A stretch of 34,298 nucleotides of DNA, taken from NCBI GenBank assembly GCA_016865935.1, contig VGOB01000030.1, forward strand, positions 1-34,298. The letters run 5' to 3'. Position numbers and translations under genes: made by a program. The stretch's first letter is position 1, and the number at the start of each line of letters is the position of its first letter. The notes under the pieces were generated by a model that was given only the letters and a program-made list of their open reading frames with translations, made no database searches and was not told the origin of the DNA. Source of the stretch: Chloroflexota bacterium. GTDB taxonomy: Bacteria; Chloroflexota; Anaerolineae; UBA4142. Positions 492 through 34,298 of the stretch are shown here, piece by piece.

Positions 492-1437
492 CACACTAAT
501 CTTGGTGACGTGGGCAATAGTGGTTTCCATCGTTTGCGCGATTAGCATTACTGCCACGTACCGAAAATTCAAGGGCGTCAAGACCGCACTACTGAACGAG
601 ATTGAGCAGGTAGAGCAGGAACTGTTCAGTGACTTTCAGGAAGTTGGTAGGGCGGAACTTGAACAGACGCACGCGGGCAGGGAGTTGTTGGAACTTATTT
701 CCAAAGAGCATCCTTCTTTCTTCGCTGGCAAGCAAGTCTTGACATCATCCGCAGACGCGCCATCTCAAATCAGACTTCCATTTGCACTTCGCTTTGTGTT
801 GCTGTTAGGGAATGCTACCATATTTTTGAGGTACGCCTTCGTCCCAGAAAGCAATCTTCAAGTCATTTATCGTTTTGGCAAATACTCGGCAGTTAAAGGT
901 CCTGGCATTATCAGTTACCAACGCTTGTTTGAAACGCTAGGACCGTTGGTATACATAGGCAGTCAATTTGCAGAATACACGTTCAACGAGATATTCTCTC
1001 GCGACGCTATGCCCATCAATGTTCGGCTGAGGATGGTTTATAAATTTGACCCACGCTCTACTAAAGATGAAATTGCTCGCGTCTTAGTTTCCCTACCTCG
1101 CGAAGCCCTCGTCAGCATCGTTGAAAAATATCTCCGCTGGGCGTTGATGACGGCTATCGGGAATTATGATACCGCCGAAGTTGTACGCCGTGAAGTAATC
1201 ACAAGTATTGAGGAACACCTAAACACCACCGTTTCAAAGGAGATAGGATTTCTCGGCATTCACTTGGGCAGTAAGCCAAACATATTATCAATCGAATTGC
1301 CTCGCCTTGCAATTGAATCCGCCGAGACCGACCTTCATCGTGCCACTGAACTTGTTGAGCAACTGAACCGATACAAAGCAGGCGAGTCATCAGTTCCTCT
1401 TGAAGAAGTGTTGAGGAACTACGTTTCGAGACGATAG
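484..1437 (+). CDS. SPFH/band-7 (stomatin/prohibitin-like) membrane protein
   Basis: N-terminal TM helix, then a beta-rich core (VIYRFGKYSAVKGPGII...) and a C-terminal helical region (YDTAEVVRREVITSIEEHL...GFLGIHL) with the SPFH pattern. The call is by pattern recognition only. Confidence 0.45.
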   Translation: MYNTLILVTWAIVVSIVCAISITATYRKFKGVKTALLNEIEQVEQELFSDFQEVGRAELEQTHAGRELLELISKEHPSFFAGKQVLTSSADAPSQIRLPFALRFVLLLGNATIFLRYAFVPESNLQVIYRFGKYSAVKGPGIISYQRLFETLGPLVYIGSQFAEYTFNEIFSRDAMPINVRLRMVYKFDPRSTKDEIARVLVSLPREALVSIVEKYLRWALMTAIGNYDTAEVVRREVITSIEEHLNTTVSKEIGFLGIHLGSKPNILSIELPRLAIESAETDLHRATELVEQLNRYKAGESSVPLEEVLRNYVSRR

Positions 1438-1463
1438 AAAGAAAAACGCGAGAATGCGCGAGC

Positions 1464-1552
1464 GGAGAACACACGCGCACCGACAACGGCGGGGCGGCTG
1501 GCAATAGGAAGATACTTTCGATTCGCCCGCCGTTGCGGTGCGCTACAGCGTT
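1464..1552 (+). repeat. copy 1 of a ~100-nt structured imperfect palindrome (GGAACACAC...CGACAACGG...CCGTTGCGG...GCTACAGCGTT)
   Basis: Long imperfect hairpin with a bulged A. It shares conserved flanks with copy 2 at 3495-3605, and the paired positions differ by compensatory changes (CGCACCG/CGGTGCG here versus CACGCCG/CGGCGTG in copy 2). Confidence 0.6.
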
Positions 1553-1588
1553 TGCAGACATTCCTTTTTATTAGCGAAAGGTACGCCT

Positions 1589-2221
1589 ATGCCGATAATG
1601 TCAAGACAATGCGCTTTTCAAGAATTGCCAACCAAAGTTGCCCGAGAATTACAAAGGTATATGGCAACTGACGACAAGGTAATTGCTTGTTTTGAGTCAC
1701 AACGAGAAATTGGAAATAAAGATTTTGGCATTTTCAAGAATTACGGTTTCACTGATTGCTACAATGCCTACGTCATCACCCAAAATCAAGTTGTGATTTA
1801 TATGCACTCTTCGAGCAATTCTTACCCCAATCAAGAATCGCTCTCATCAACGCGACTCATTGATATAGACAACGTCTCTGAGCAGGTAGCAGCCAAATTA
1901 GACTTTAGAGTTTACGCTACCAACAATAGCGGCGGTAACAATACGTATTGCTACTTTGTGTCCCAGCAAGCCGCTCGCCAATTCTCTGAAATATTGCGTC
2001 AGGCAATCAGAGAAGCAAAAACGTCATTGGCATCTACTTCTCAATCAACTCAAACTAATGCTAAACGATGTAACCAATGCGGCGCAAACAATCCACCTGA
2101 CAACGCATTTTGCGGAAAATGTGGCTCGGCACTCACAAAGAAATGCAGTCGTTGCGGAACTGTTAATGATTCTGGGTTCAAATTTTGTGGTGTTTGTGGT
2201 ACGCCACTTGGCAATCCGTGA
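1589..2221 (+). CDS. bacterial PH-like domain protein with C-terminal double zinc ribbon
   Basis: C-terminus has CNQCG..CGKCG and CSRCG..CGVCG motifs (two zinc ribbons). The N-terminal part resembles bPH_2/YokE-like domains. Start taken at ATG 1589, with aaagg 7 nt upstream. Confidence 0.5.
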   Translation: MPIMSRQCAFQELPTKVARELQRYMATDDKVIACFESQREIGNKDFGIFKNYGFTDCYNAYVITQNQVVIYMHSSSNSYPNQESLSSTRLIDIDNVSEQVAAKLDFRVYATNNSGGNNTYCYFVSQQAARQFSEILRQAIREAKTSLASTSQSTQTNAKRCNQCGANNPPDNAFCGKCGSALTKKCSRCGTVNDSGFKFCGVCGTPLGNP

Positions 2222-2460
2222 TACGGAGACACGAAAGAGAACGTCTGCAAACACCTGCCCGCCGATTCCGCCACCGTCGCGGCTTTTTGGCATTGTGACT
2301 TCGCGTTTGCAGCGTGCTTTCATTTCGTGGACACTTTGCGGCGGAATCGGCGGGCGGTAGCGTTCCCCGTCATGCCCTTGCAACTGGAGCATCGTACCAC
2401 TCGCAAGTTGACAAGTCGCGTAATCGAATAGACTCAAGAACATCGAAACCTGGGTGAGAC

Positions 2461-3444
2461 ATGAAAACATTCCTTAGTTCAACTTACATAGACCTCGTTG
2501 AACATCGCAAGGCGGCAACCGAAGCTTTAGAACGTCTCGGACAGCAAGTGGGACGTATGGAAATATTCGGCTCTCAGCCGCTAGAGCCGACACAGGTCGC
2601 TTTGGCGGAAATTGCAACATGTGATTTGTTTGTCGGAATATATGCCTACCGTTATGGTTGCATTCCCGCAGGGTCGCTCTCTTCGATAACAGAACAGGAA
2701 TTCGACTACGCCAAGAAACTCAACAAACCTCTTTTCTGCTTTCTCGTAGACGAAGAACATCCTTGGCCGCCCAAAATGATTGAGGACGAACCTGGCAAAA
2801 CAAAGTTACACTCTTTCAAGGCAAAAATTAGTAGCGGTCTAGTGAGGGATACCTTTACAACGCCCGAAGATTTGGCTTTCAAGGTTGCGGCATCCGTTGG
2901 CAGGTATTTGACGGAAGAACAGCCTTCCAAAGTGAGCCAAAATCCGTATGTTGCGCTATTGAGGCAATCAGATGATTTGGCTACCTTTCTAGAGAAAGCG
3001 GTTCGAGAACTTGAGAACATTACACAGACAGATTACAATCAAGTCTTCTTGATGACTTCATCTACATACTCACGTCAACTCGTTGCAGTAGCGGACGTAA
3101 TACCACCTCACAAACAACGCTATCGGATTGCGACGTTTGCGGGGCTACTTGGGTCGGCAGTATCCACAGGAAAGACACTAAACGTGCAAAAAGTACGAGA
3201 GAGACCAAACTACGTCCAAGCAGTTCTCGAAACAGAATCGGAACTCGTTGTTCCCATTTCAACTGCTGGTGCTGTATTCGGAGTCCTGAATTCGGAGAGC
3301 GAGGAAGCATCCCATTACAAAGAAGAAATACGACGCCAAGTAGAGAATCTGTCCGCAGCAATCGGTGAACTTCTACCTACCTTCGGTTGGTATCCAAGCA
3401 TGTCGGTAGACCATTTGCCGTGGATTCATAGATTACCGAAATAA
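2461..3444 (+). CDS. DUF4062-like (TIR-related Rossmannoid) N-terminal domain fused to a C-terminal GAF-like domain
   Basis: N-terminus FLSSTYIDLVEHRKAATEALERLG...DLFVGIYAYRYGCIP...EQEFDYAKKLNKPLFCFL matches the DUF4062 hallmark (STY.DL..ER......L, E.EY..A...P.L.F). C-terminus VVPISTAGAVFGVLNSESEE... is GAF-like. Confidence 0.5.
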   Translation: MKTFLSSTYIDLVEHRKAATEALERLGQQVGRMEIFGSQPLEPTQVALAEIATCDLFVGIYAYRYGCIPAGSLSSITEQEFDYAKKLNKPLFCFLVDEEHPWPPKMIEDEPGKTKLHSFKAKISSGLVRDTFTTPEDLAFKVAASVGRYLTEEQPSKVSQNPYVALLRQSDDLATFLEKAVRELENITQTDYNQVFLMTSSTYSRQLVAVADVIPPHKQRYRIATFAGLLGSAVSTGKTLNVQKVRERPNYVQAVLETESELVVPISTAGAVFGVLNSESEEASHYKEEIRRQVENLSAAIGELLPTFGWYPSMSVDHLPWIHRLPK

Positions 3445-14720: not shown

Positions 14721-15665
14721 ATGCACATAGACTGGATAGGTGTAACCCTTCAAGGCAATAGCCAACATGCTCTTGGGCTTGTGCGCTCGTGGGCTGGGTC
14801 GCTCGAGGAGATGAGCGGCGGAGGTATGGGCTACGATCGAAGTGCCAAGATATGGGACACGGGTCGAGTGTATTGGTCTACTATGCGATCCGATATGGGC
14901 GTTCACGTCCGCTTGCCTTCAAGCGCAATGCACACAAGCAAACAAGACTCAGTGGACCTACTGACGTGGCTTGTGAGGCACAACGGCAATACGACGCGGC
15001 TTGACGTGGCTTGTGATGACTTTGACTATCACTTGCTCGACCTCGCAGAGATTAGCCGCAAGGCGCAAGAGGATGAAGTATGCACGGACGCCCAGGTGAT
15101 TGATGAATGGCACGCGTTGCGGGGCGTAGGGCATACGATCTACTTTGGCTCGCGTTCGAGTGAGCGCCTGTTACGCATTTATGACAAAGCCGCGGAGCAA
15201 GTAAAAAAAGCGGGCGGCAATGCGGCGATGCCTGACGAATTCTGGGTTCGGGTGGAGTTGGAGTTGAAAGGGGATCGGGCAAAAGTCGCGGGGCAAATGA
15301 TCGTTGATCATCGTGAAACGTGGCAGATTCTAGGGGCTGGCTGGATTCGGGACTTTGTAGATTTCAAGGAACCCGAATTGGAGGATATTAACAAGGCGCG
15401 TTGGGAAACTTCTAGATGGTGGCTTGATTTTCTGGACAATGCTGCCAAGTGCAAAATTCCGATCAAGCGTGAGGAACAAACGATAGAACGGATCGTGGCG
15501 TGGGTGGACAAGCAAGTGGCGCCCAGTCTGTTTGTTTTGAGCGCGACGGTGGGACACGATCAGGTATTTGAACGGGTTGGCGCGGCGTCTGCGCGTTTGA
15601 GTGCGCGCCAGGTGCAGTTGATCAATGAGTGGAACACTGAAAACGAGGTTACCGATGTTCAATGA
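14721..15665 (+). CDS. rolling-circle replication initiator, Rep_trans family (phage replication initiation factor, RstA/gpII-like)
   Basis: Motifs HTIYFGSRSSERLLRIYDKAAE and FWVRVELELKGDRAK resemble the conserved (R)xYDK and vRvElel blocks of PF02486. Size 314 aa. Confidence 0.55.
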   Translation: MHIDWIGVTLQGNSQHALGLVRSWAGSLEEMSGGGMGYDRSAKIWDTGRVYWSTMRSDMGVHVRLPSSAMHTSKQDSVDLLTWLVRHNGNTTRLDVACDDFDYHLLDLAEISRKAQEDEVCTDAQVIDEWHALRGVGHTIYFGSRSSERLLRIYDKAAEQVKKAGGNAAMPDEFWVRVELELKGDRAKVAGQMIVDHRETWQILGAGWIRDFVDFKEPELEDINKARWETSRWWLDFLDNAAKCKIPIKREEQTIERIVAWVDKQVAPSLFVLSATVGHDQVFERVGAASARLSARQVQLINEWNTENEVTDVQ

Positions 15666-24449: not shown

Positions 24450-24738
24450 CGGGTTTTTCCTTTCTGCCCAAGAAGAGAATGAGATAGCACAGGGCATAGA
24501 GCATTGCTGCGCTATCTGCGATTTGAAACGTCATTTCGACCGGAAAGGTAGGCGCACTGCCTTGACTGACCTGGGTCAGTTCGTCGTCCACGTCTCGCGG
24601 CTCGACCGGCGGGATTGCTTTTACCTTGGCAAAGATCGGACCGTAAGGCGTGGGGATTGGTGTAAATTCGATCATAATCCCCGCGCGCAAAAGTTCGGCG
24701 AGGGCATCGGAATGGGTTTTGATCATTGGCATGTCCAC
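24430..24738 (-). CDS. hypothetical protein with C-terminal TM
   Basis: 102-aa ORF. Confidence 0.4.
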   Translation of the reverse strand: MDMPMIKTHSDALAELLRAGIMIEFTPIPTPYGPIFAKVKAIPPVEPRDVDDELTQVSQGSAPTFPVEMTFQIADSAAMLYALCYLILFLGRKEKPDETAKR

Positions 24739-25559
24739 GCTCCATTTTCATCGTCGGTATGCGCGCGATTGCGTTTCATTTCCTTGTGTTGTTTCGGGGC
24801 GAACGGATTGGACGGATTACCGGCGCGGATATGTTGGACAAAAAAACCTGGTCCTAGTGCTTTGACCTTTTCCGGATTTTTTAGATGGGCGGCGCTGTTG
24901 TGATCGTTGTAGTTGTACCATCCCCGGAGATATTCTTCATTGACGTGCGGCATTTGGGCGAGTTGAATCGCGACATACGCGTCAATGCCTAATTCCATCA
25001 TCATCATTTGGGCGTTGCGTGAAACGTCATCGGGCAATGTGGAAAAATCGGGTTGCGCTGATGATGATGGTTCCTGACGGTTCTTATGACGGTTCAATGA
25101 TGGATCAGGATCGGGGGCAACCGATTGCCCCCTATGATTTACGCGATTTTGCCCCCCCTTGACGCTGGATTGCCCCCCCCCTGCATTTTTTTGCCCCCCT
25201 CGCGCGTTTTTTTGCAGGGGGGCAAACTTTGCACCCTGGGGGGCAAACTTTGCCCCTTTCGGTTTTAGGTCGATTTGATCGGGGTAGGTCCTTAGAAGTT
25301 TGACGTTGATCTGAAATGCGTTTGTGCCTCGGGGCCCGCCGCCAGGGACGGTGATAACTTCTTTGGATTCTTCTACCTTGCGGAGGAGATACCTGGCATT
25401 GCGTTCGCATTGGCGCGCGTAGCGGGTCAATCGGGCGATTGACGGATAAGCGCCGGTCCCGTCGTCGTGCGCGTGATCGGCAATGGCGAGTTCGATCAAC
25501 AGGACTGAACCGCTGTTTTTGGATCGTCGCCAAACCAGGGTCATCATTTCGATGCTCAT
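24723..25559 (-). CDS. replication initiator-like protein with N-terminal HTH_36 (PF13730-type) domain and internal Gly/Gln/Lys repeats
   Basis: SVLLIELAIADHAHDDGTGAYPSIARLTRYARQCERNARYLLRKVEESKEVI matches the HTH_36 pattern (v.l.lad.a...g.cfPS...LA......s.rtv.r.l..Le..g.I). The central part is encoded by an iteron cluster. Confidence 0.5.
   Translation of the reverse strand: MSIEMMTLVWRRSKNSGSVLLIELAIADHAHDDGTGAYPSIARLTRYARQCERNARYLLRKVEESKEVITVPGGGPRGTNAFQINVKLLRTYPDQIDLKPKGAKFAPQGAKFAPLQKNARGGQKNAGGGQSSVKGGQNRVNHRGQSVAPDPDPSLNRHKNRQEPSSSAQPDFSTLPDDVSRNAQMMMMELGIDAYVAIQLAQMPHVNEEYLRGWYNYNDHNSAAHLKNPEKVKALGPGFFVQHIRAGNPSNPFAPKQHKEMKRNRAHTDDENGAWTCQ
25145..25258. repeat. iteron cluster inside the initiator gene: TTTGCCCCCC x3 and inverted GGGGGGCAAACTTTGC x2
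   Basis: ttttGCCCCCCCttgacgctggattGCCCCCCCCCctgcatttttttGCCCCCCtcgcgcgtttttttgcaGGGGGGCAAACTTTGCaccctGGGGGGCAAACTTTGCccc. Confidence 0.6.
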
Positions 25560-26219: not shown

Positions 26220-26691
26220 CGGCTTTTTCCTTTCTGCCGCGTTGCTCGGCGCGGCGTTGCCGCTTGCGCCAAAGTTTGGCGCATTCGGCGCGCTGTTTTT
26301 TATTCGTCCCGCAATAGACCTGGTTCACGGTCATCACGGCTGGGCGATGGTGACCTCGACAATTGCGGGGACGAACGTATAGATAGACCTTGTCCGGAAT
26401 TTGATAACGGGAATAGATGATGACGCGCTTGAGGTGTTGCGGGGAATGAAACTGGGTCGTGGTCTCAAGTTCGTCTAGTCGCTTGATCAACCTGGTCGTC
26501 ATTGGGAATGGATTGCGCTTCCGTAAAAGTTTTTTGATGTAACTGCGGGATACTCCAAACTCGTGCGCGAGTCCTTTCAATGACCAACGGGATTTGGTTT
26601 TTTCCCGAAACTGCCGCAATCGGTCAGTTGGGGTGCAAGTGGCTAGAAGGGCGTGTACGGACTTGCCCTCTTTTTTTGACCTGCGGATCAT
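26209..26691 (-). CDS. HTH DNA-binding protein (phage regulator-like)
   Basis: WSLKGLAHEFGVSRSYIKKLL is a helix-turn-helix motif. Confidence 0.45.
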   Translation of the reverse strand: MIRRSKKEGKSVHALLATCTPTDRLRQFREKTKSRWSLKGLAHEFGVSRSYIKKLLRKRNPFPMTTRLIKRLDELETTTQFHSPQHLKRVIIYSRYQIPDKVYLYVRPRNCRGHHRPAVMTVNQVYCGTNKKQRAECAKLWRKRQRRAEQRGRKEKADDD

Positions 26692-26985
26692 TTTGCCCCT
26701 TTTACGCGCCTCTCAGGCGTTATTCCCCTAGTTCCTCCCCTAGTTTTTTTTGCGGTTTTCGCGGTCGGTCGGTCGCGTAAAATCGGGGCTCGCTTGCTTG
26801 GGGCAGGGGTGATGTCGGGATACTTTGCGATGGAAAAGATGGGCGCGGATGTTCGGCTTGGGAAAGCTGGGCGCATTGTGAAAAAAGATTTTTCGGCTTC
26901 CACGGTGATATACCAGTTGAAAGTGGGTGAGTGAAAAATTGAGATCCGCGCGGGGTTGTCTTTTCGATTTCGCCGCGCGTCGAAA

Positions 26986-27014
26986 TTGACACAGAACGTA
27001 TGTTCGGATACAAT
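26986..27014 (+). promoter_or_regulatory. consensus sigma70 promoter (TTGACA, 17-bp spacer, TACAAT) giving a near-leaderless transcript
   Basis: TTGACAcagaacgtatgttcggaTACAAT, with the GTG start 7 nt downstream. Confidence 0.5.
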
Positions 27015-27020
27015 CACGGC

Positions 27021-27377
27021 GTGTCCGATTTGCAACTGGCTGCGTTGATCGTCGTCGCCGGAGTGGCGCTTGCGCTTGCGCTCTGGCTCCGACGCCGGAC
27101 GCGGCGCACACAATCCAAACGCCTGACCGTCCAAGTGATCCCGCCGGCGCCCGCGCCTTCCGAACGGCGCTGGTTGTGGGATTCGCTGACTGCGCGCGAA
27201 ATGCAGGTCGCGCATCTGGTCGTGCAAGGCAAGCGCAACGCGGAAATCGCAGAGGAATTGACCATTAGCGTCCATACCGTCGAATCGCACCTCAAACACA
27301 TCTACGCCAAACTCGGCGTGCATTCGCGCGGTGAATTGACGCGCGTCCTGCGCGATCTACTTGACGCCCTGGCTTGA
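27021..27377 (+). CDS. membrane-anchored LuxR/GerE-family transcriptional regulator
   Basis: N-terminal TM LAALIVVAGVALALALWL, then LTAREMQVAHLVVQGKRNAEIAEELTISVHTVESHLKHIYAKLGV (LuxR-type HTH). Confidence 0.6.
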   Translation: MSDLQLAALIVVAGVALALALWLRRRTRRTQSKRLTVQVIPPAPAPSERRWLWDSLTAREMQVAHLVVQGKRNAEIAEELTISVHTVESHLKHIYAKLGVHSRGELTRVLRDLLDALA

Positions 27378-27629
27378 CGCGCCATGCCAACGCCACTCGC
27401 CCCCCACGATGCAAATGCAGCGCGCTTGCTTGGCGCCCGTGAAGGCGATCAACCCAAGTCGCCGCATGCGTTCCAGTTGATTGCGTGCGACGCTCTTGCT
27501 TGAAATGCAGCAGGCGCGCATCATCTCCGCCAGCGACGGCGAGTTGCCGTCGTGCCGGATTTTGTATTCGACGAGCCAGCCGAAGATTTGCTGAAGGTCA
27601 TATACGGCTCTCTCGCTCGTTTGTTTCAT
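27357..27629 (-). CDS. LexA-N-terminal-like winged-HTH regulator (CI/repressor candidate)
   Basis: QQIFGWLVEYKIRHDGNSPSLAEMMRACCISSKSVARNQLERMRRLGLI resembles the LexA DNA-binding domain. Divergent from the integrase gene. Confidence 0.5.
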   Translation of the reverse strand: MKQTSERAVYDLQQIFGWLVEYKIRHDGNSPSLAEMMRACCISSKSVARNQLERMRRLGLIAFTGAKQARCICIVGGEWRWHGASSQGVK

Positions 27630-27762
27630 TGCGTTGTTTCCCCTTTTGTGGTAAAGTGTCGGTGGAGAGCGGGACGCTTCGCGGGCTAACCCCGCTCCCC
27701 ACCGTTGTTTCGTGCGCGGCATCCTTTTGCCGCGCATTTTTTGTTGGTAACGGAAATCCGTG

Positions 27763-27815
27763 ATACGAAAATCACGGAAAAATCACTACTTTCCGTGATA
27801 GCACAAACGTTCGCT
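27763..27815. promoter_or_regulatory. operator-like TCCGTGAT / ATCACGGA repeats in the regulator-integrase intergenic region
   Basis: aaaTCCGTGATacgaaaATCACGGAaaaatcactacttTCCGTGATagc. The same 8-mer recurs six times in 29302-29490. Confidence 0.5.
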
Positions 27816-27848
27816 TTGTGCTATGCTGGGACTCACAAGGAGTCAGGA

Positions 27849-28766
27849 ATGGAACTTGCCCGCGCGATACAAGCGTTTCTCAACGACGCGGTTGCCCGCG
27901 ACCTCAGCCCGAAAACGAATCAACGGTATCAGTCCGATTTGGCGGATTTGACCCGTTTTCTTGAGCCGCATTCCATCACTTTGCTTGAGCAAGTGACGGC
28001 CGATCTGTTGCGCCTCTACATGACCGATCTCCAAACGCGGAGCAATCAGAGCCGCCCGGATGAAAAACTCTCCCCGTTCACGATCGAGGGGCGGTATCGC
28101 TCGATCAAAACCTTCTTCCGCTGGTGTGAGTGGCAAGAGTACCTGCCCGCCAACCCCATGCGCCGCGTTCGCCGCAACAGACTGCCGGTCCACATCGTGC
28201 CGCGTCTGTCCGAGATGCAAGTTAGGACACTGCTCAATGAAGTCGAGCAAACGATGATGCCGCAACGCAATCTGGCGTTGATCCTGCTGATGGTGGATAG
28301 TGGGCTGCGGCGCGGTGAAGTGCTCGGTCTGAAGATGGCGGACGTCTTCTTGGCGGAACGGCGGGTCCGAGTCTTTGGCAAAGGGCGGAAGGATCGGGAT
28401 GTTCCACTCGGCGATGCTTCCGCTCGTGCACTTGAAGAATGGCTTGCCCTGCGTCCGGTCTGCCTTTGGAATCAGGTATTCCTTAACGATGAGGGGACAC
28501 CCTTTCAGGCGGCCGGAGTGCAGTCATTGTTTGCGCGGTTGCAAGCCCGCGTGGGGGTGCCGCGACTGTATCCCCACTTGCTACGCCATACCTTTGCGGA
28601 GATGTATCTCAAGCAGGTGCGGGATGTGAAGAGTCTGCAACAAATCTTGGGGCATTCCAAAGCCAGCACGACGCTCGACCTCTACGTGGAGCACGATTTC
28701 GACGTTCTGTTGCGGATGCACCAGATCGGCTCGCCGGTGGATGCAATAAAAAAAGCGCACCTATGA
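27849..28766 (+). CDS. int: tyrosine site-specific integrase (XerC/XerD-like phage integrase family)
   Basis: N-terminal SAM-like domain (LSPKTNQRYQSDLADLTRF, YRSIKTFFRW) and catalytic domain (RRGEVLGLKMADV, HLLRHTFA, ILGHSKASTTLDLYVEHD) covering the R..H..R..Y motifs. GGAG RBS. Confidence 0.85.
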   Translation: MELARAIQAFLNDAVARDLSPKTNQRYQSDLADLTRFLEPHSITLLEQVTADLLRLYMTDLQTRSNQSRPDEKLSPFTIEGRYRSIKTFFRWCEWQEYLPANPMRRVRRNRLPVHIVPRLSEMQVRTLLNEVEQTMMPQRNLALILLMVDSGLRRGEVLGLKMADVFLAERRVRVFGKGRKDRDVPLGDASARALEEWLALRPVCLWNQVFLNDEGTPFQAAGVQSLFARLQARVGVPRLYPHLLRHTFAEMYLKQVRDVKSLQQILGHSKASTTLDLYVEHDFDVLLRMHQIGSPVDAIKKAHL

Positions 28767-28782
28767 TTAGGTGCGCTTTGGA
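28749..28782 (+). terminator. rho-independent terminator after int
   Basis: AAAAAAAGCGCACCTatgattAGGTGCGCTTTGG. Confidence 0.5.
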
Positions 28783-28903
28783 TATCCCCAGTTTGCGTGT
28801 GGAAGAATCTATGAACTCGCGTTGCTCTAGGAGAAGCCCTCTTCTCCTGATTCAATAGTGAACGCCTTTGTCTTGGACAGTTTCAGTTTCTCAAATACAA
28901 AGA

Positions 28904-29023
28904 GTTGTGCGATAATGAGAGCGTTCTAGAAGGATAGAGCATCTCCTAGAATGGGGGAATTTCGCAAACACATGGAATTGTGGTATAATGAGGGTGTTCT
29001 AGGAGGATAGGGCATCTCCTAAA
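28904..29023 (+). repeat. two 48-bp direct repeats, each with an extended -10-like box and a GGAGG-sequestering hairpin
   Basis: ttgtgcGATAATgagagcgTTCTAGAAGGATAGAGCATCTCCTAGAa and ttgtggTATAATgagggtgTTCTAGGAGGATAGGGCATCTCCTAAAt, immediately upstream of the tRNA-Gly fragment. Confidence 0.5.
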
Positions 29024-29038
29024 TCAATTGAATGCGTG

Positions 29039-29085
29039 TCTCCTTGCCAAGGAGAAGGTCGCGGGTTCAAATCCCGTCTTCCGCT
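29039..29085 (+). tRNA. partial tRNA-Gly(GCC), 3' half only (anticodon arm to discriminator; no 5' half, no CCA): att-core duplicate
   Basis: TCTCC-TTGCCAA-GGAGA is the anticodon arm, with U33, anticodon GCC and A37. AGGTC is the variable loop. GCGGG-TTCAAAT-CCCGT is the T-arm. CTTCCGC-T is the acceptor 3' strand plus U73. This is near-identical to the 3' half of Firmicutes tRNA-Gly-GCC. The upstream 25 nt cannot form a D-arm or acceptor stem. Confidence 0.6.
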
Positions 29086-29301
29086 CTTCGCCGAAAGGCG
29101 AATGCACAAACTAACTCTATGTAGGTCACCGAAACTGGCTCAGGTAATGAGCTACCGAAAATGGCTCGCTGTGAGTTGGTAAAGTGCGCGACCACCGACA
29201 ACAAAGCACGGTGGTAATTTGTCGAATGGGATCGCGTTCATACTCCTGCCAGGGAAGCGGACGCGATCCTATTCTTATTTAACCACATTCAGGTTCAAAA
29301 A

Positions 29302-29490
29302 GCAATCACGGAAACTAGGTATTTTGACGTGATCTTCGTATCACGGATTTCCGTGACACGGAAAAATTAGAGAGGCATTCGCCTCGCGCAACTGAAAAGT
29401 AATCACGGAAACCAGGTATTTTTCCGTGATATTCGTATGACGGATTTCCGTGATATGGCAAAATCCAGAGACATTCACCTTGTGCAATTC
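29302..29490. repeat. two ~95-bp tandem direct repeats (~80% identical), each carrying three TCCGTGAT-type motifs
   Basis: aATCACGGAaac.aggtatttt...gtgat.ttcgtat.acggatTTCCGTGA... occurs twice. Same motif as 27763-27815. Confidence 0.6.
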
Positions 29491-29545
29491 AATGAGGCAC
29501 GGCACACGGTAGGGCAGGGGGGCGCAGCACTGTCATAATGGCGCG

Positions 29546-29782
29546 TTAGTTGGACGACAAATGACGCGTCCTTTTTTTGTCTGCCTTCACGTAGGTGATC
29601 TGCACTTGGCGGCGCAATCCAAGAACCTTCAAAATAGCGGGACCTGGATCGCGCTTGCCGTGCAAAACATCGCCAATATAAGCCCCTGTGACGCCAATTT
29701 CCTTTGCAAAGGCGCTCTGCGATCCCGCACGGTCTACCATCTTTTGTAGCAACATAACCACTTCATCGCGAGTCATCGCCAA
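29546..29782 (-). CDS. XRE/Cro-C1-type HTH regulator
   Basis: SQSAFAKEIGVTGAYIGDVLHGKRDP is a helix-turn-helix. Confidence 0.5.
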   Translation of the reverse strand: MAMTRDEVVMLLQKMVDRAGSQSAFAKEIGVTGAYIGDVLHGKRDPGPAILKVLGLRRQVQITYVKADKKRTRHLSSN

Positions 29783-30093
29783 GCATTGTAAGCACAGAAG
29801 GTTGATTTGTCAAGTACGATCTTTCGAGTGCTGAATCGTCGCTGTGTAGCGGCGACTCAACGTGCAATCAGGAGACTGCTGAAGTGTTTGAATGCGTTTG
29901 TTCTGACATGTACGTGACTCGGCAACTGCATTACGATTTCCTGCGACAAGGTAAGAAACTGTCGTACACGTTTTGGCGTGTATCGGCAGTTTTTTGTTGG
30001 ACATGCTCGACTGAAAACTGACGCGTGAGTTGGAAATATATTTTCCAACGGGCGGGTACTCTCAAGATAGAACCCGATCTTGGGAGGTACCCG

Positions 30094-30297
30094 ATGGCGC
30101 GATTGTTTGCAGGCGAAAAGGATTGCAAGTCGGACAATATTTTGCGCGTGCTGCAATCTCACGACTTTGGACTACGCGAGAGTGAATTGGCAGATTTTTT
30201 GAAATGGGATCGGCGGACGGTCAACAACTATCTGCGTGATTTGCAAGCGCAAGAACAGGTTCACAAAGAGGGACGACTGTGGTTTGCCGAAGAATAG
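30094..30297 (+). CDS. small winged-HTH protein, paralogous to the N-terminal HTH of the WYL-Cas3 fusion
   Basis: GGGAGG RBS. ILRVLQSHDFGLRESELADFLKWDRRTVNNYLRDLQAQEQVHKEGRLW aligns with VFLTLRRYPNGLTEADLEQDTGLNRRTLNNYLRALETEGKIYKDGLTW. Confidence 0.5.
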   Translation: MARLFAGEKDCKSDNILRVLQSHDFGLRESELADFLKWDRRTVNNYLRDLQAQEQVHKEGRLWFAEE

Positions 30298-30362
30298 CGC
30301 GTGGAAAAACTCATTGCACTAATTTTCCAACTGCAGAATAGAATAAGAATAGAGGAATCACG

Positions 30363-33300
30363 ATGCCCAAAATAGATCAAGCCACCTACGAAGATCGCAA
30401 GATGCGCGTGTTTTTGACGTTGCGCCGTTATCCGAACGGGTTGACTGAAGCCGACCTGGAACAAGACACTGGCTTGAATCGTCGCACGCTCAACAACTAT
30501 TTGCGCGCGTTAGAGACGGAAGGCAAGATTTACAAGGACGGCTTGACCTGGGCAGCCTTACCCTTCGATGAACTGCGCCTACGCCAATTTGAACTCTCGC
30601 CCGAAGAAGCGATGACGTTGTATCTGGCGACGCGCTTGCTCGCCAAGCAGCACGACAAGCGGAACGAACCTGCCGAAACTGCGCTGATGAAACTCGCAGC
30701 GGCGTTGAAGACGAACAAGATCGCAGGGGATGAAATCCATCAAGCCGCGCAAGAACTGGCGCAACGTCCGCAACAAGGCGAGTACGATCTGGTTTTTCGC
30801 GCGGTGATGCAAGCGTACATCTATCGCCGCATGCTCCGCATCACGTACGAGCCGCTGAATCGGAAAGCATTCGAGACGGATTTTTCGCCGTACCTCATCG
30901 AGCCGTCGGCGATTGGATTCACGACGTACGCGATCGGTCACAGCAGTATTGTCAACGCGACGCGAACGTACAAACTGGAACGCATCAAAGCGGCGGCGCT
31001 GACGCGGCAAGAGTACGTCATCCCGCGCGAGTTTCGCGGCTTGGATGTGCTGAAAAGCGCGTGGTCGGTGATCTACGGCGAGAACTTGCTCACGGTTGTC
31101 TTACGTTTCAGCCCGAACGTTCGCAAGCGCGTCGAGGAAACGCGCTGGCATTTTTCCGAAGCGAAGCGCGACGACCCCGCCAAGCCAGGTTATTTGCTGT
31201 GGCAAGCGCAAGTCGCAGACACGACGGATATGCTGCCGTGGGTGCGCGGCTGGGGCGCGGATTGTGAGGTGGTGGAGCCGAGGGAGTTGCGGAACGCGCT
31301 TACGCGTGAGGCGCGGGAGTTGGCGGAGATGTATAAGGTGATGGAGGCGGGGAAAAATCAGATTCAATATTATGCCCATTCCAAAAAAGGAAAAGACAAA
31401 TCCGAATGGCAACCATTGATCGCACATTTGACGAACTCGGCAAATTTAGCCGAGAAGTTTGGCGCAGATGCAGGAATCTCCGAACTGGCGCGCACGGCGG
31501 CTTTGATACACGATCTTGGTAAATATTCCAAAGCATTTCAAGCGCGGTTGGATGGTTCGCCGCGCAAGGTAGATCATGCCACGGCGGGAGCGAGGGAAGC
31601 CACAAGTCTATTCAACCAAAATCAAAATCAAAGATGGCTTGCCACAATGCTGGCTTATTGTGTTGCAGGACATCACACGGGACTGCCAGATTTCGGCAGC
31701 GCGATTGATGTAGAAACCGATGCCACGTTGTCGACTCGGCTTGACCCAAACAAAAAGACACTGGAAGATTTCAGCGCGTACAAAACTGAATTAGACCTTG
31801 CCACATTGACTCTGCCTCCCAACTTGAAAATCCGTCCCGACAAAGAGCGCCCAGGATTTTCGCTCGCCTTTTTCACGCGGATGTTGTACTCCACATTGGT
31901 AGACGCGGACTTTCAAGAAACTGAAACCTACATGAACGACGGCGAAAAGCCGCGCGGTGAATATCCAAGCATTGAAGAATTGTGCCAGAAATTCAATACC
32001 CATTTACGGAAATTCGACAACCCCGAAGGCGACATCAACAGAAAGCGGACAGAGACCCTGAAAACTTGTATCGCGAAAGCCGATTCTGAACAAGGATTCT
32101 TCACGCTCACCGTTCCAACGGGCGGCGGCAAGACGCTGGCTTCGATGGCGTTTGCGTTGAATCACGCGGTCAAGCATGGACTGAAACGGATCATCTACGT
32201 CATTCCGTTTACTACCATCATCGAGCAAAACGCGGGTGTGTTTAAAGAATGTTTGGGCGAGCAAAATGTCCTTGAACATCATTCCAACTTCGATTGGAAT
32301 CCGATGCGGGAAGCTAGTCCAGAGTCCGCCGACAATGAGACAAACGATGTCTTGAGTAAACTAAAATTGGCTTCGGAGAATTGGGATATTCCGATTGTAG
32401 TCACGACCAACGTGCAATTCTTCGAGTCGTTGTTTGCCAACAAATCCTCGCGGTGCCGCAAACTGCACAACCTTGCCAAAAGCGTCATCATTTTTGACGA
32501 AGCGCAAATGTTGCCGCGTGAATATCTAGATCCTTGTATGTTAGCAGTGAAAGAGTTGGTTCAGAACTACGGCGCGAGCACGGTCTTTTGTACGGCGACA
32601 CAACCCGCGTTGGACAAGCGTCTGCCTGGCGTGAAATTCATAGACCTGGTTCCCGATTCGCAAGCGTTGTTCGATTTCTACAAACGAGTGCAGATCAAGA
32701 ATCTTGGCAAGGTCCCAGACGCTGAGTTGATTGAAAAGATGAATGCTCATCCGCAGGTACTGTGCATTGTCAACACGCGCCGACATGCCAAGGGGCTATT
32801 TGACGGTCTTACGGGTGAAGGTAGTTTCCATCTTTCCACGCTGATGTGCCCCGCGCATCGCAAAGAAAAATTACTGGAGATTCGGAAACGACTCAAAACA
32901 GCGCAAGCTTGCCGCGTGATTTCTACCCAGGTGATGGAAGCGGGCATTGATGTTGATTTTCCTGTTGGCTTTCGCGCTCTCGCTGGATTGGACTCTATCG
33001 TCCAGGCGGCAGGACGTGTCAACCGAAACAAGAATAATCCGATGGGAGATGTGTTCGTCTTCGCGCCTGAAACACCGTTCATCAAAAAAACACCCGCGTT
33101 CATCAAGCAAGGCGCGAGCGTGGCGGAGAGCATCCTGCGGGATTACGCTGACAACCCTGATTCCATTCAGGCAATCAACGCATATTTCTCAATGCTCTAC
33201 AATCTTCAAGATAGCGGAGCATTCGACGCGAAAAAGATTCTTTCGTTTTTCGACAAGCAGACAGGCGAATTGGATTTCGATTTCAAAACAGCGGCAGAGA

Positions 33301-33602
33301 ATTTCAGGTTGATTGAAAACAATCAGGTCGCCGTTGTCATTCCTTATAAGGACGAGGCGAGAGAAATCCTTGAACAGGCGCGTTATCATCCCTACCCATT
33401 CAAGTTCGCGAGACAGTTGCAAACATACACCGTCAACATTTATCAAAACGAATTTGAAAAATTACAAAGCAAAGGAGTGATTGAAACATGTAACGAAACC
33501 TATCAAGTCCTTACTGTGGCTGGCATGAAAGAGTTTTACAATGAGAACACGGGGCTCGTCCTTCCTGCCGATGTCGGCGGTGAGGCGGTGTTCTTCGACT
33601 AG
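30363..33602 (+). CDS. cas3: Cas3 (HD nuclease + SF2 helicase) translationally fused to an N-terminal HTH-WYL-WCTD regulator module (type I-C locus)
   Basis: Residues ~1-320 hold a winged HTH, a WYL domain (YLIEPSAIGFTTYAIGHSSIVNATRTYKLERIKAAAL) and a WCTD-like region, with no stop codon before MEAGKNQIQYYAHS. After that come the HD motif (HDLGKYS), helicase motif I (TVPTGGGKTLASM) and motif II (IIFDEAQML), and a Cas3 C-terminal domain. Confidence 0.8.
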   Translation: MPKIDQATYEDRKMRVFLTLRRYPNGLTEADLEQDTGLNRRTLNNYLRALETEGKIYKDGLTWAALPFDELRLRQFELSPEEAMTLYLATRLLAKQHDKRNEPAETALMKLAAALKTNKIAGDEIHQAAQELAQRPQQGEYDLVFRAVMQAYIYRRMLRITYEPLNRKAFETDFSPYLIEPSAIGFTTYAIGHSSIVNATRTYKLERIKAAALTRQEYVIPREFRGLDVLKSAWSVIYGENLLTVVLRFSPNVRKRVEETRWHFSEAKRDDPAKPGYLLWQAQVADTTDMLPWVRGWGADCEVVEPRELRNALTREARELAEMYKVMEAGKNQIQYYAHSKKGKDKSEWQPLIAHLTNSANLAEKFGADAGISELARTAALIHDLGKYSKAFQARLDGSPRKVDHATAGAREATSLFNQNQNQRWLATMLAYCVAGHHTGLPDFGSAIDVETDATLSTRLDPNKKTLEDFSAYKTELDLATLTLPPNLKIRPDKERPGFSLAFFTRMLYSTLVDADFQETETYMNDGEKPRGEYPSIEELCQKFNTHLRKFDNPEGDINRKRTETLKTCIAKADSEQGFFTLTVPTGGGKTLASMAFALNHAVKHGLKRIIYVIPFTTIIEQNAGVFKECLGEQNVLEHHSNFDWNPMREASPESADNETNDVLSKLKLASENWDIPIVVTTNVQFFESLFANKSSRCRKLHNLAKSVIIFDEAQMLPREYLDPCMLAVKELVQNYGASTVFCTATQPALDKRLPGVKFIDLVPDSQALFDFYKRVQIKNLGKVPDAELIEKMNAHPQVLCIVNTRRHAKGLFDGLTGEGSFHLSTLMCPAHRKEKLLEIRKRLKTAQACRVISTQVMEAGIDVDFPVGFRALAGLDSIVQAAGRVNRNKNNPMGDVFVFAPETPFIKKTPAFIKQGASVAESILRDYADNPDSIQAINAYFSMLYNLQDSGAFDAKKILSFFDKQTGELDFDFKTAAENFRLIENNQVAVVIPYKDEAREILEQARYHPYPFKFARQLQTYTVNIYQNEFEKLQSKGVIETCNETYQVLTVAGMKEFYNENTGLVLPADVGGEAVFFD

Positions 33603-33619
33603 AAAGGAGGTTCACCCTA

Positions 33620-34209
33620 TGGGCTACGGAATCAAAATCCGAGTGCGTGGCGAGTATGCCCTGTTTACCCGCCCTGAAATGAAAGTGGAGCGTGTGAGTT
33701 ACGACATCATCACGCCTTCGGCGGCACGTGGAATCATCGAAGCGGTGTACTGGAAGCCAGCCATCCGCTGGGTGATAGATAAAATCCACGTGTTGAACGG
33801 AATCGAGTTCACTAACATTCGGCGCAATGAGGTAAGCGAGAAGGCGTCCGAAAGTGAAGCACGGCGGCGGATGAACGGCGCAACTGATCCATTTTATTTG
33901 TCCGCAACAGACGCCCGCCAACAACGCGCCGCGCTCGTGCTGAAAAACGTGGATTACATCATCGAAGCGCACTTCAAATTGACCGACAAGGCAGGCGCGG
34001 AGGACACAGTTGAAAAGCACTACAACATTATCCTGCGCCGCTTGCGCAAGGGACAGCATTTCCACGCGCCTTGTTTGGGAACGCGCGAGTTTGGCGCAAA
34101 GGTGGAATTGATCGAAGATGATGCGCCAATGCCGCCAAGCCCGCTTGGAAATCTGGAGTTGGGTTGGATGTTAGACATTATTAAAAATAGGGATAAAATG
34201 TATGCATGA
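33620..34209 (+). CDS. cas5c: Cas5c (Cas5d, type I-C pre-crRNA endoribonuclease subunit)
   Basis: MGYGIKIRVRGEYALFTRPEMKVERVSYDIITPSAARGIIEAVYWKPAI is the characteristic Cas5d N-terminus. AGGAGG RBS. Confidence 0.8.
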
Positions 34210-34298
34210 CCAAATACACCGAGTTGAAACGAGACCGCCGCAAGTTTCTTGCGCTGACCGGATTAACCCTCAAAGAGTTCCAAGCACTATTGCCCGCA
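34205..34298 (+). CDS. partial ORF at window edge; N-terminus resembles a transposase HTH (LTGLT..EF..LLP type) rather than Cas8c
   Basis: MTKYTELKRDRRKFLALTGLTLKEFQALLPA... overlaps the cas5c stop (ATGA). Only 31 aa are visible. Confidence 0.3.

What the first reader, a model, noticed from the sequence alone, without database searches (positions are those of the whole stretch)
28767..29100. Integrase-adjacent 3' half of tRNA-Gly(GCC): att junction of an integrated element
Bases 29039-29085 reproduce a tRNA-Gly(GCC) from the anticodon stem through the discriminator. The anticodon loop is TTGCCAA, the T-arm is GCGGGTTCAAATCCCGT and the acceptor 3' strand is CTTCCGC-T. The preceding sequence cannot form the D-arm or 5' acceptor strand. 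An intact tyrosine integrase ends 270 bp upstream. This is the signature of an element integrated at the anticodon-loop sublocation of a tRNA-Gly gene. The intact tRNA is expected at the other end of the element, possibly outside this window.
Basis: partly seen in the sequence, partly recalled or inferred. Interest (0 to 1): 0.55.

Follow-up and report, generated by a model that had tools for sequence, protein, structure and literature searches.

The report
Element-borne tRNA-Gly attachment site (attP)
The 47-base piece of a glycine tRNA gene beside the integrase is real, but the DNA on both sides of it belongs to the mobile element, so it is the element's own docking site (attP) and not the border between an inserted element and its host; this is a textbook arrangement, seen here in an undescribed Chloroflexota element that carries CRISPR-Cas genes.

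Summary
Window 29039-29085 is an exact copy of the 3' part of tRNA-Gly(GCC), from the anticodon stem to the discriminator. It is identical to 109 intact Chloroflexota tRNA-Gly genes. The window holds no complete tRNA, and an intact 305-aa tyrosine integrase ends 272 nt upstream.

Relatives supply all four attachment-site forms:
- empty attB: L078
- attL: L143, an intact tRNA-Gly followed directly by a homologue of window 29086-29776
- attR: L132 and L151, an integrase and tRNA fragment followed by the native Anaerolineae tRNA-Gly flank and host genes
- attP-type: window, L130, L134

The window's right flank matches the element arm seen at attL, not the host flank. It also carries the same ATCACGGA/TCCGTGAT repeat block as the integrase promoter. 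The fragment is therefore an attP-type site with the order P arm, core, P' arm.

The molecule sampled is either a free circular form or a head-to-tail tandem junction. The element encodes a rolling-circle Rep, and L143 shows that tandem arrays occur in this family. I could not tell the two apart.

This is a new member of a well-known kind, the anticodon-centred tDNA attachment site. Interest is modest. The side interest is a variable defence cargo slot next to attP.

The parts
27738..27802 (.). Block of ATCACGGA/TCCGTGAT inverted repeats between the divergent LexA-like gene and int. Presumed operator region of the int promoter.
   Evidence: It forms inverted repeats I1 and I2 with 29302-29366 and 29402-29451 (82-88%). 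The 8-mers occur almost only here and at 29305-29455 in the window. The block is conserved upstream of int in L130, L132 and L134.
27849..28766 (+). Tyrosine integrase, 305 aa, built like XerC/D: a SAM-like core-binding domain plus the catalytic domain. There is no room for an N-terminal arm-binding domain.
   Evidence: Pfam PF00589 5e-32 and PF02899; PHROG integrase 3e-42. Gene as called on the source contig. About 30% identity to XerC/D and to every phage or plasmid record searched.
28745..28779 (.). Hairpin overlapping the int stop codon, with an A-run before it and T after it. Terminator of int.
   Evidence: Sequence; terminator-like hit.
28826..29022 (+). P arm. It holds three palindromes of the form TAGGAG..TCTCCT (28826-28848, 28925-28950, 28998-29022) that repeat the half-site AGGAGAAG of the anticodon stem. 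Two of them lie in a 73-nt tandem duplication (28887-28948 and 28960-29021). Each duplicated copy has a promoter-like TGnTATAAT pointing at the core.
   Evidence: Repeats D2, D6 and I4. This palindrome pattern occurs only at these three places in the window. The half-site occurs 5 times in 271 nt against 0.2 expected (post hoc). One such palindrome about 50 nt upstream of the core is conserved in L130, L132 and L134, and in weaker form in L136. Promoter-like sites.
29038..29088 (+). Core, the block of identity with the host tRNA-Gly(GCC) gene. 29039-29085 runs from the anticodon stem to the discriminator, and 29086-29088 (CTT) matches the first bases after the gene in Anaerolineae-type hosts.
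29044..29050 (+). Anticodon loop TTGCCAA, the predicted strand-exchange (overlap) region, flanked by the inverted stem strands TCTCC and GGAGA as core-type half-sites.
   Evidence: Inference. At the attR sites of L132 and L151, and at the internal junction of L143, identity with the tRNA starts at loop position 32 or 33. The class is the anticodon-centred attP of Islander.
29087..29102 (+). Hairpin TTCGCC-GAAA-GGCGAA directly after the tRNA end. First feature of the P' arm.
   Evidence: Sequence; predicted in the fold. Present in L130 and L143. A different stem sequence sits at the same place in L137 and in the second L143 copy.
29224..29285 (+). Conserved hairpin followed by a T-rich tract in the P' arm. 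Presumed terminator that replaces the native tRNA-Gly terminator after integration.
   Evidence: Inverted repeat I13. RNAalifold on 6 arms from 5 loci gives 20 pairs, 5 with compensatory double changes. Function is inferred.
29298..29464 (.). Two tandem 97-nt units carrying the same ATCACGGA/TCCGTGAT repeats as the int promoter, in inverted orientation.
   Evidence: D1, I1-I3. One to three such units are present in the arms of L130, L134, L137 and L143. They are absent from the host flank of L132.
29546..29776 (-). Small XRE/Cro-like HTH gene, the last conserved gene of the P' side. Variable cargo starts beyond it.
   Evidence: 14 proteins (13 homologues plus the query's own cluster P0121), some with PF01381. 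It has the same position in L130, L137 and L143. Its promoter TTGACA-17-TACAAT lies at 29813-29785.
27000..27629 (.). LuxR/GerE-type regulator (27000-27377, +) and LexA-DNA-binding-domain protein (27357-27629, -), the conserved regulatory pair next to int.
   Evidence: Pfam hits. The same pair lies next to int in L130, L132 and L151. L150 and L136 have the LexA-like gene next to int.
14721..15665 (+). Rep_trans rolling-circle replication initiator. With the O-like replication initiator at 24723-25559 (-), it shows that the element can replicate on its own.
   Evidence: PF02486 6e-40; PHROG replication initiators.
30363..34209 (+). Cargo beside the attachment site: a WYL/WCX-Cas3 fusion (30363-33602) and Cas5c (33619-34209) of a type I-C CRISPR-Cas system. 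The start of a transposase-like ORF follows at 34206.
   Evidence: Pfam hits; gene calls; window end sequence.

Best explanation
Window 29038-29088 is the core of an attP-type attachment site of an integrative, self-replicating mobile element of Chloroflexota, probably with Anaerolineae-type hosts. The element carries its own copy of the 3' two-thirds of the host tRNA-Gly(GCC) gene, directly downstream of its integrase.

Proposed mechanism (inferred from the anatomy and from the known behaviour of tDNA-integrating tyrosine recombinases):
1. The XerC/D-like integrase binds the inverted anticodon-stem strands TCTCC and GGAGA, and exchanges strands across the 7-nt anticodon loop of attP and of the chromosomal gene.
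2. Integration splits the host gene. The element's copy (29044-29085) then completes it, so the tRNA stays intact at attL.
3. The element's P' arm supplies a post-tRNA hairpin and a terminator, followed by a repeat block and the XRE gene.
4. The original 3' part of the gene, with its native terminator, is displaced to the far end next to int (attR).

In the window, both the int/P-arm side and the P' arm are joined to the core. This copy is therefore not a host-element border. It is either the free or excised circular form, or the internal junction of two head-to-tail copies.

Shown here: the identity of the core, the element origin of both flanks, and the existence of attB, attL, attR and attP-type forms among relatives.
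Inferred: the exact cut sites, the roles of the P-arm palindromes, of the terminator and of the repeat block, and the physical state of the molecule.
For: 1. The core is exact and far beyond chance. It equals 109 intact tRNA-Gly genes, and the window has no complete tRNA.
2. attL: L143 has rpsA, tRNA-Phe and an intact tRNA-Gly(GCC). Directly after the tRNA comes a homologue of window 29086-29776 with the hairpin, the terminator hairpin, an ATCACGGA repeat unit and the XRE gene, at 75-88% identity.
3. Empty site: L078 is syntenic with L143 from rpsA to the tRNA-Gly. Homology stops one base after the tRNA, and a different native flank follows.
4. attR: L132 (int 66% identical) and L151 (74%) have int, a P-arm-side sequence and the tRNA fragment. 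After that comes the native Anaerolineae flank shared with the intact genes of L053, L099, L047, L018 and L073, followed in L132 by housekeeping genes. The window's flank does not align with that native flank.
5. The same arm follows a different tRNA, tRNA-Gln(CTG), in L137, so it travels with the element and not with the tRNA-Gly locus.
6. The repeat block of the right arm is the same as that in the int promoter. It is missing from the host flank of L132.
7. The same int, core, arm and XRE order is found in L130 and L134.
8. Every assembled contig that carries the identical integrase and crosses the core has this arrangement, and none shows a host flank. Six of these were fetched or aligned: L111, L115, L116 and L117, plus L118 and shorter Logan unitigs that stop inside the core. 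One search counts 4 records in the 20-50 kb class and 5 in the 5-10 kb class. The samples are several Ga01941xx datasets.
9. The element has a Rep_trans initiator and a second replication initiator, so a free replicating form is plausible.
Against: - No circular junction was found. All long contigs stop at the same two ends, inside apparent repeats, and the ends share no overlap or terminal inverted repeat.
- Tandem arrays exist in this family (L143). The same local anatomy could therefore be the junction of two integrated copies.
- L130 is binned in a chromosomal MAG.
- Nothing here shows recombination activity.
- The evidence for attL, attR and attB comes from relatives with 57-80% (XRE) or 66-75% (Int) protein identity, not from the window's own population.
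Confidence: 0.8

Rival explanations
1. Tandem-array junction. This is a sub-case of the anatomy above, but with an integrated state. A newer copy (window about 1-29037, ending with int) has integrated into the tRNA-Gly upstream of an older resident element of the same family (29089 onward: XRE, Cas3, Cas5). The fragment would then be the right-end repeat of the left element, and the intact tRNA-Gly would lie beyond the left end of the window.
For: - L143 shows exactly such an array: an intact tRNA-Gly, then arm, XRE and a 3-kb unit without int, then a tRNA fragment, then a second arm and XRE.
- Islander lists 125 tandem arrays among 3919 islands.
- The contigs are not shown to be circular.
Against: - The window's 29 kb to the left of the fragment holds no second arm or XRE copy and no tRNA.
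- A block of 100% identity (26437-34298) spans the core in a variant that differs only to the left of 26437. The two sides therefore behave as one linked unit.
- The element encodes its own replication.
Confidence: 0.3
2. Simple attR. The element lies entirely to the left, and everything to the right of 29085 (XRE, CRISPR-Cas) is host chromosome downstream of the original tRNA-Gly gene.
For: - The order int, fragment, flank is that of the true attR sites in L132 and L151.
- CRISPR-Cas loci are usually chromosomal.
Against: - The flank is unlike the native flank at true attR sites and at intact genes.
- It is homologous to the arm found after the intact tRNA at attL (L143) and after a different tRNA (L137).
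- It shares the int-promoter repeat block.
- The cargo after XRE differs between relatives, being Cas, type III R-M or TIR.
Confidence: 0.06
3. Assembly artefact. The 51-nt core is a repeat shared with tRNA-Gly genes of many Chloroflexota in the sample, and the assembler joined an attR left side to an attL right side.
For: - Logan unitigs all break at 29067, inside the core. This shows a branch in the assembly graph there.
- L134 has a scaffold gap flanked by duplicated core sequence.
Against: - The same join was assembled independently in at least five JGI samples and in a related MAG (L130).
- The core (51 nt) is shorter than a read. Even a chimeric join of attR and attL would still mean that both flanks are element DNA.
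Confidence: 0.04

Closest known systems
Genomic islands and prophages integrated in tRNA or tmRNA genes with an anticodon-centred attP (Williams 2002 sublocation classes; Islander database, PMC4383910)
   Same: A tyrosine integrase lies next to a copy of the tRNA gene running from the anticodon region to the 3' end. Integration splits the gene, the element's copy restores it, and the displaced 3' fragment marks the far end. Islander counts 3760 of 3919 islands with a 3' fragment and 2083 with an anticodon-centred site, and tandem arrays are known.
   Different: The copy in the window is flanked by element DNA on both sides (attP-type), not by host DNA. The integrase is only about 30% identical to any phage or plasmid recombinase searched. 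The hosts are uncultured Chloroflexota.
Actinomycete integrative and conjugative elements such as pSAM2 and SLP1 (from my own knowledge, not checked in a paper here)
   Same: These are integrative elements of monoderm bacteria that also replicate as free circles, often with a rolling-circle Rep. They have int next to attP, and an attP-attB identity block running from the anticodon loop to the 3' end of a tRNA gene. The relative L134 carries an FtsK/SpoIIIE-type protein and a Prim-Pol, which is a typical AICE gene set.
   Different: No FtsK/SpoIIIE-type transfer protein was found in the window among the proteins scanned. The phylum is different. The Rep here is Rep_trans. Membership was not established.
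Mycobacteriophage L5-type integration into tRNA-Gly (from my own knowledge)
   Same: A tyrosine integrase and an attP whose common core overlaps a tRNA-Gly gene and restores it.
   Different: L5 Int is heterobivalent, with an N-terminal arm-binding domain and arm-type sites. The integrase here starts directly with the SAM-like core-binding domain, and the P arm carries palindromes that resemble the core half-site.
tRNA-dependent lysogeny (Guerrero-Bustamante and Hatfull 2024, PMC10865867)
   Same: This applies only to the relative L136, where int is followed by a 13-nt core (CTTGCCAAGGAGA) and then by a complete tRNA-Gly(GCC) gene. That resembles a short common core plus an element-encoded replacement tRNA.
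   Different: The window itself uses the ordinary solution, a 47-51-nt block that rebuilds the host gene. The L136 reading is untested.

Membership tests
tDNA-integrating element with anticodon-centred attachment site (Williams/Islander class A) | Tyrosine integrase gene adjacent to the tDNA-derived sequence | tested here: met
   Int at 27849-28766, PF00589 5e-32, catalytic residues present. It ends 272 nt from the fragment.
tDNA-integrating element with anticodon-centred attachment site (Williams/Islander class A) | The element-borne sequence is identical to the target tRNA gene from the anticodon stem or loop through the 3' end | tested here: met
   29038-29088 is identical to intact tRNA-Gly(GCC) genes in 109 genomes.
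tDNA-integrating element with anticodon-centred attachment site (Williams/Islander class A) | Crossover within the anticodon loop | tested here: inconclusive
   In the attR sites of L132 and L151 and at the internal junction of L143, identity starts at loop position 32 or 33. This fits the class, but the cut sites cannot be read from sequence alone.
Integrated island as defined by Islander (intact tDNA plus displaced fragment in the same replicon and orientation, with host DNA outside) | An intact cognate tDNA in the same orientation on the same replicon | tested here: not met
   No tRNA in the 34.3-kb window and no second copy of the core. The rest of the replicon is not available.
Integrated island as defined by Islander (intact tDNA plus displaced fragment in the same replicon and orientation, with host DNA outside) | The displaced fragment is followed by the native downstream flank of the tRNA gene | tested here: not met
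   The window flank does not align with the native flank, whereas those of L132 and L151 do. It matches the element arm of L143, L137, L130 and L134.
attP (attachment site on the element itself) | Both arms are element DNA, found separately at attL and attR of integrated relatives | tested here: met
   The P' arm is found at attL in L143 and L137. The int/P-arm side is found at attR in L132 and L151. Both are joined in the window, L130 and L134.
attP (attachment site on the element itself) | Lies on a free circular (excised or replicating) molecule | not testable with these tools
   Contig ends show no overlap or inverted repeat. No reads or coverage are available.
attP (attachment site on the element itself) | Recombines with attB under the cognate integrase | not testable with these tools
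   This needs an experiment.
Actinomycete-type integrative conjugative element (AICE) | FtsK/SpoIIIE-type double-strand DNA translocase for transfer | tested here: inconclusive
   None was found among about 28 window proteins scanned, but many ORFs have no family hit. It is present in the relative L134.

The most novel reading that the evidence does not exclude
The window samples a previously undescribed family of Chloroflexota integrative and replicative elements with three unusual traits.
1. A short XerC/D-like integrase without an arm-binding domain works on an attP whose P arm carries palindromic copies of the core half-site in place of classical arm-type sites.
2. The conserved P' arm (tRNA-end hairpin, terminator, operator repeats, XRE) can be attached to different tRNA cores, Gly(GCC) and Gln(CTG).
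3. The slot directly after XRE is a defence-gene hotspot. It holds type I-C CRISPR-Cas with a WYL-Cas3 fusion in the window, type III R-M with AAA/DUF4276 and PIN in L130, and a TIR protein in L137.

Such elements would shuttle immune systems between uncultured freshwater and subsurface Chloroflexota.
Probability: 0.4. Interest if true: 0.45.

Novelty: new member of a known kind. Interest (0 to 1): 0.3.

Why it matters
For annotation, a tRNA fragment next to an integrase is normally used as an island boundary. Here that rule would place the boundary wrongly and would assign a CRISPR-Cas locus to the host chromosome when it is probably mobile cargo.

For biology, the finding gives a sequence-defined set of attB, attL, attR and attP forms for an integrase family of uncultured Chloroflexota, a phylum with almost no genetic tools. 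It also points to a mobile-element slot that carries different defence systems.

The attachment site itself follows a textbook principle and would not surprise a specialist.

Tried and rejected
1. A complete tRNA at the site was looked for and rejected (ARAGORN and Rfam). An RNA fold of 28990-29110 gives no cloverleaf.
2. A second copy of the core or of the arm within the window would have marked the other end of the element. None was found.
3. Exact-pattern scans found nothing: the junction and the arm hairpin in IMG/VR, and the arm hairpin in JGI metagenome contigs. That collection evidently does not hold the window's own source contigs, so the negative result means little.
4. Circular closure was tested three ways: end overlap, terminal inverted repeats of a putative IS spanning both ends, and contigs running past cas5. 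All were negative or uninformative.
5. attL was sought among the 109 intact tRNA-Gly loci by counting repeat motifs downstream. None was found. attL was found only through the XRE-profile scan.
6. Contigs carrying XRE homologues are mostly under 2.5 kb, because the tandem repeats break assemblies.
7. Phage identity: PHROG hits are limited to the integrase, replication initiators and one family of unknown function. No capsid, portal, terminase or tail proteins were found among the ORFs scanned. I do not call the element a prophage.
8. Reading the P-arm promoter-like sites as drivers of a functional tRNA-half RNA was rejected. They are not conserved in L130, L132 or L134.
Full report
**1. The observation**

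- Window 29039-29085 (+) reads TCTCC TTGCCAA GGAGA AGGTC GCGGG TTCAAAT CCCGT CTTCCGC T. This is a tRNA-Gly(GCC) from the 5' strand of the anticodon stem to the discriminator.
- It occurs once in the window, and none of 100 shuffles gave a match.
- An exact scan of one genome per GTDB species found the 47-mer in 110 loci, all but one labelled Chloroflexota (Dehalococcoidia, Anaerolineae, SAR202; L075 is labelled Patescibacteria). In 109 of them it is preceded by a normal 5' half (GCGGAAGTGGCKCAGYGGTAGMGCG), so it belongs to an intact gene.
- In genes without an encoded CCA (L018, L047, L053, L076, L099), identity with the window runs from 29038 to 29088.
- ARAGORN finds no tRNA anywhere in the window. 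Rfam finds none at gathering threshold, and at E<=10 reports only an 18-nt T-arm match.
- The bases before 29038 do not align with a tRNA 5' half.
- The integrase is a 305-aa protein (27849-28766 as called on the source contig). It has a SAM-like core-binding domain, a full catalytic domain and all catalytic residues. It ends 272 nt upstream.

**2. Source and surroundings**

- The window is a metagenome contig that was assembled to nearly the same length (34,298 to 34,306 nt) in several JGI samples of the Ga01941xx series.
- To the left of int lie a LexA-domain protein, a LuxR-type regulator, HTH proteins, an O-like replication initiator (24723-25559) and a Rep_trans rolling-circle initiator (14721-15665, 6e-40). 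Many further ORFs have no family hit. No virion proteins were recognised.
- To the right lie a small XRE gene (29546-29776, minus strand), an HTH gene, a WYL/WCX-Cas3 fusion, Cas5c and the start of a transposase-like ORF at the contig end.

**3. The one non-tRNA hit and the family**

- The 110th locus, L093 (the same contig as L130, a MAG labelled Candidatus Aquidulcis), carries the same fragment without a 5' half. It is homologous to the window on both sides: int at 73-75% DNA identity, and 28980-29819 at about 74-75%.
- Beyond XRE it carries a type III restriction-modification set, an AAA/DUF4276 pair and a PIN protein where the window has Cas genes.
- Integrase homologues were then collected and their contigs fetched. 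XRE homologues were collected as well.

**4. Four attachment-site forms among relatives**

| Form | Locus | What is seen |
|---|---|---|
| attR | L132 (Chloroflexi MAG, Int 66%) | int, one TAGGAG..CTCC palindrome, TCTTA\|TTGCCAAGGAGAAGGTCGCGAGTTCAAATCTCGTCTTCCGCT, then a native flank, then lacZ-, RuBisCO-like and other housekeeping genes |
| attR | L151 (Int 74%) | the same order, with a flank nearly identical to that of L053 |
| attL | L143 | rpsA, tRNA-Phe, an intact tRNA-Gly(GCC) with the identical 47 nt, then directly a homologue of the window's right flank |
| attB | L078 (Anaerolineae MAG) | syntenic with L143 from rpsA to the tRNA-Gly; homology stops one base after the tRNA and a different native terminator follows |
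| attP-type | window, L130, L134 | int side and arm joined to one core |

- The native flank in L132 (TTTTTTGTAGATCAGGGGTTTGTGCCCCACAAACCAGTC...GGACTGGTTTTT) aligns with the flank downstream of intact tRNA-Gly genes in L053, L099, L047, L018 and L073.
- The homologous arm in L143 contains the CGCCGAAAGGCG hairpin, the GAATGGGATCGCGTT...ACGCGATCC terminator hairpin, an ATCACGGAAAC repeat unit and the XRE gene. Identity to the window is 75-79%, and 88% for a second copy.

**5. Why the right flank is element DNA**

Besides point 4, three further results agree.
- In L137 the same arm and XRE (80% identical) follow an intact tRNA-Gln(CTG) that has its own promoter. The arm therefore moves with the element and not with the tRNA-Gly locus.
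- The arm contains two 97-nt units (29298-29464) built from ATCACGGA/TCCGTGAT repeats. These recur, inverted, in the int promoter region (27738-27802) and almost nowhere else in the window. The block is conserved upstream of int in L130, L132 and L134 and in the arms of L130, L134, L137 and L143. It is absent from the host flank of L132.
- The window's flank does not align with the native flank.

The fragment in the window is therefore an attP-type site and not a host-element junction.

**6. Anatomy and likely mechanism**

- Int starts directly with the core-binding domain. There is no room for a lambda-type arm-binding domain.
- The inverted stem strands TCTCC and GGAGA around the 7-nt anticodon loop are the natural core-type sites. 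In the attR sites of L132 and L151, and at the internal junction of L143, identity with the tRNA begins at loop position 32 or 33. This fits the anticodon-centred class, which accounts for 2083 of 3919 Islander islands.
- The P arm carries three palindromes TAGGAG..TCTCCT (28826-28848, 28925-28950, 28998-29022) that repeat the half-site AGGAGAAG of the core. There are 5 half-sites in 271 nt against 0.2 expected (a post hoc test). One such palindrome about 50 nt upstream of the core is conserved in relatives. I infer that these are accessory integrase sites.
- The P' arm starts with a hairpin directly after the tRNA end. It also contains a hairpin plus T-tract supported by compensatory changes in 5 of 20 pairs across six arms. 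I infer that after integration this hairpin terminates transcription of the rebuilt tRNA gene, whose native terminator has been displaced to attR.
- These functional roles are inferences. The anatomy and the homologies are shown.

**7. What state is the window in?**

In favour of a free circular form:
- The element has its own replication genes.
- There is no second arm, XRE or tRNA in the 29 kb to the left.
- Every fetched contig that carries the identical integrase and crosses the core has the attP-type order.
- A 100%-identical block (26437-34298) spans the core in a variant that differs only to the left of 26437.

In favour of a tandem array:
- L143 is one. It has an intact tRNA-Gly, an arm, XRE and a 3-kb unit without int, then a tRNA fragment, a second arm and XRE.
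- Circular closure could not be shown. The contig ends lie in apparent repeats and share no overlap or inverted repeat, and no contig extends past cas5.

I put about 0.5 on the free or excised form and 0.3 on a tandem junction. The remainder goes to a simple attR (contradicted by the evidence above) or to an assembly chimera. Logan unitigs all break at 29067, as expected for a 51-nt repeat at k=31. That does not tell the cases apart.

**8. Comparison with known systems**

- The principle is the classical one: the target tRNA gene is split, restored by the element's copy, and a displaced 3' fragment is left behind (PMC4383910).
- The closest functional analogues are anticodon-centred tDNA islands. 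From my own knowledge, so are the replicative integrative elements of actinomycetes (pSAM2, SLP1). The relative L134 has an FtsK/SpoIIIE protein and a Prim-Pol.
- The integrase is only about 30% identical to XerC/D and to anything in the phage and plasmid collections. I found no paper on such elements in Chloroflexota.
- It is a new member of a known kind.

**9. Verdict**

It is the right kind of site and the right sublocation, but the wrong state: attP-type instead of a host junction. The site itself is ordinary. The surrounding element family, with its variable defence slot, adds modest interest.

Noticed in passing
window 30363-34298: Cas3 is fused to an N-terminal WYL/WCX regulator module (1079 aa) and is followed by Cas5c. 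A transposase-like ORF (MTKYTELKRDRRKFLALTGLTLKEFQALLPA) starts 4 nt before the cas5 stop. All assemblies end there, so cas8c, cas7, the adaptation genes and any array are missing or displaced. No CRISPR array is present in the window.
   Followed up: partly
window 29800-34209; L130 9645-18249; L137 341-1468: The slot just beyond the conserved XRE gene holds different defence-type cargo in relatives: type I-C Cas in the window; ResIII, AAA_15/DUF4276, N6_N4 methylase and PIN in L130; a TIR-domain protein in L137. It looks like a defence hotspot beside attP.
   Followed up: partly
window 27738-27802 and 29298-29464: An ATCACGGA/TCCGTGAT repeat block is shared by the int promoter and the P' arm. 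The arm has two tandem 97-nt units in the window, three in L130 and one or two in L143 and L137. The binding protein is unknown (XRE, the LexA-like protein or a directionality factor). These repeats also break short-read assemblies, for example at 29495.
   Followed up: partly
window 28888-28916 and 28961-28989: Two promoter-like sites with an extended -10 (TGnGATAAT and TGGTATAAT) sit in a 73-nt tandem duplication of the P arm and point at the tRNA fragment. They are not conserved in L130, L132 or L134, and their purpose is unknown.
   Followed up: partly
L136 6120-6300: In a relative (Int 64%), int is followed by only a 13-nt core (CTTGCCAAGGAGA) and then by a complete, different tRNA-Gly(GCC) gene, with phage-like genes beyond. 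This resembles tRNA-dependent lysogeny (PMC10865867).
   Followed up: partly
L137 2130-2415 (minus strand): The same P' arm and XRE are attached to an intact tRNA-Gln(CTG). This suggests that the family has switched tRNA targets while keeping the arm. The cognate integrase was not recovered.
   Followed up: no
L143 1-3613: A tandem array sits at tRNA-Gly. The first unit is about 3 kb, has an arm, XRE and a 384-aa protein without family hits, and has no integrase. A second core fragment, arm and XRE follow. The first unit may be a satellite or a decayed copy.
   Followed up: partly
window 26437 (L116, L117 positions 1-98): Contigs from two other samples are 100% identical to the window from 26437 to the right end but are unrelated to the left of it, inside the 160-aa HTH gene. 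This is a mosaic breakpoint between element variants.
   Followed up: partly
L150 1980-2100: The closest integrase relative with a useful contig (81%) has the P-arm palindrome TTAGGAGGATAGGACATCTCCTAAATCAA but no tRNA-Gly segment after it. A 486-aa protein and a shikimate dehydrogenase-like gene follow. This could be another target or a deletion.
   Followed up: no
window 1-136 and 34170-34298: Independent assemblies all stop at the same two ends, and Logan unitigs start at 106 and end at 34172 or 34200. Both ends therefore abut repeats. The left end (1-215) is non-coding and has a GC-rich hairpin (GCGGCGG...CCGCCGC).
   Followed up: partly
window 484-3444: The left end of the window encodes an SPFH/Band 7 protein, a double zinc-ribbon protein and a DUF4062-GAF protein at lower G+C (46-48%) than the rest of the element. 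This may be further accessory or defence cargo.
   Followed up: no
L134 11045-11145: A scaffold gap (a run of N) is flanked on both sides by the same core-plus-flank sequence. This is an assembly duplication caused by the tRNA repeat.
   Followed up: no
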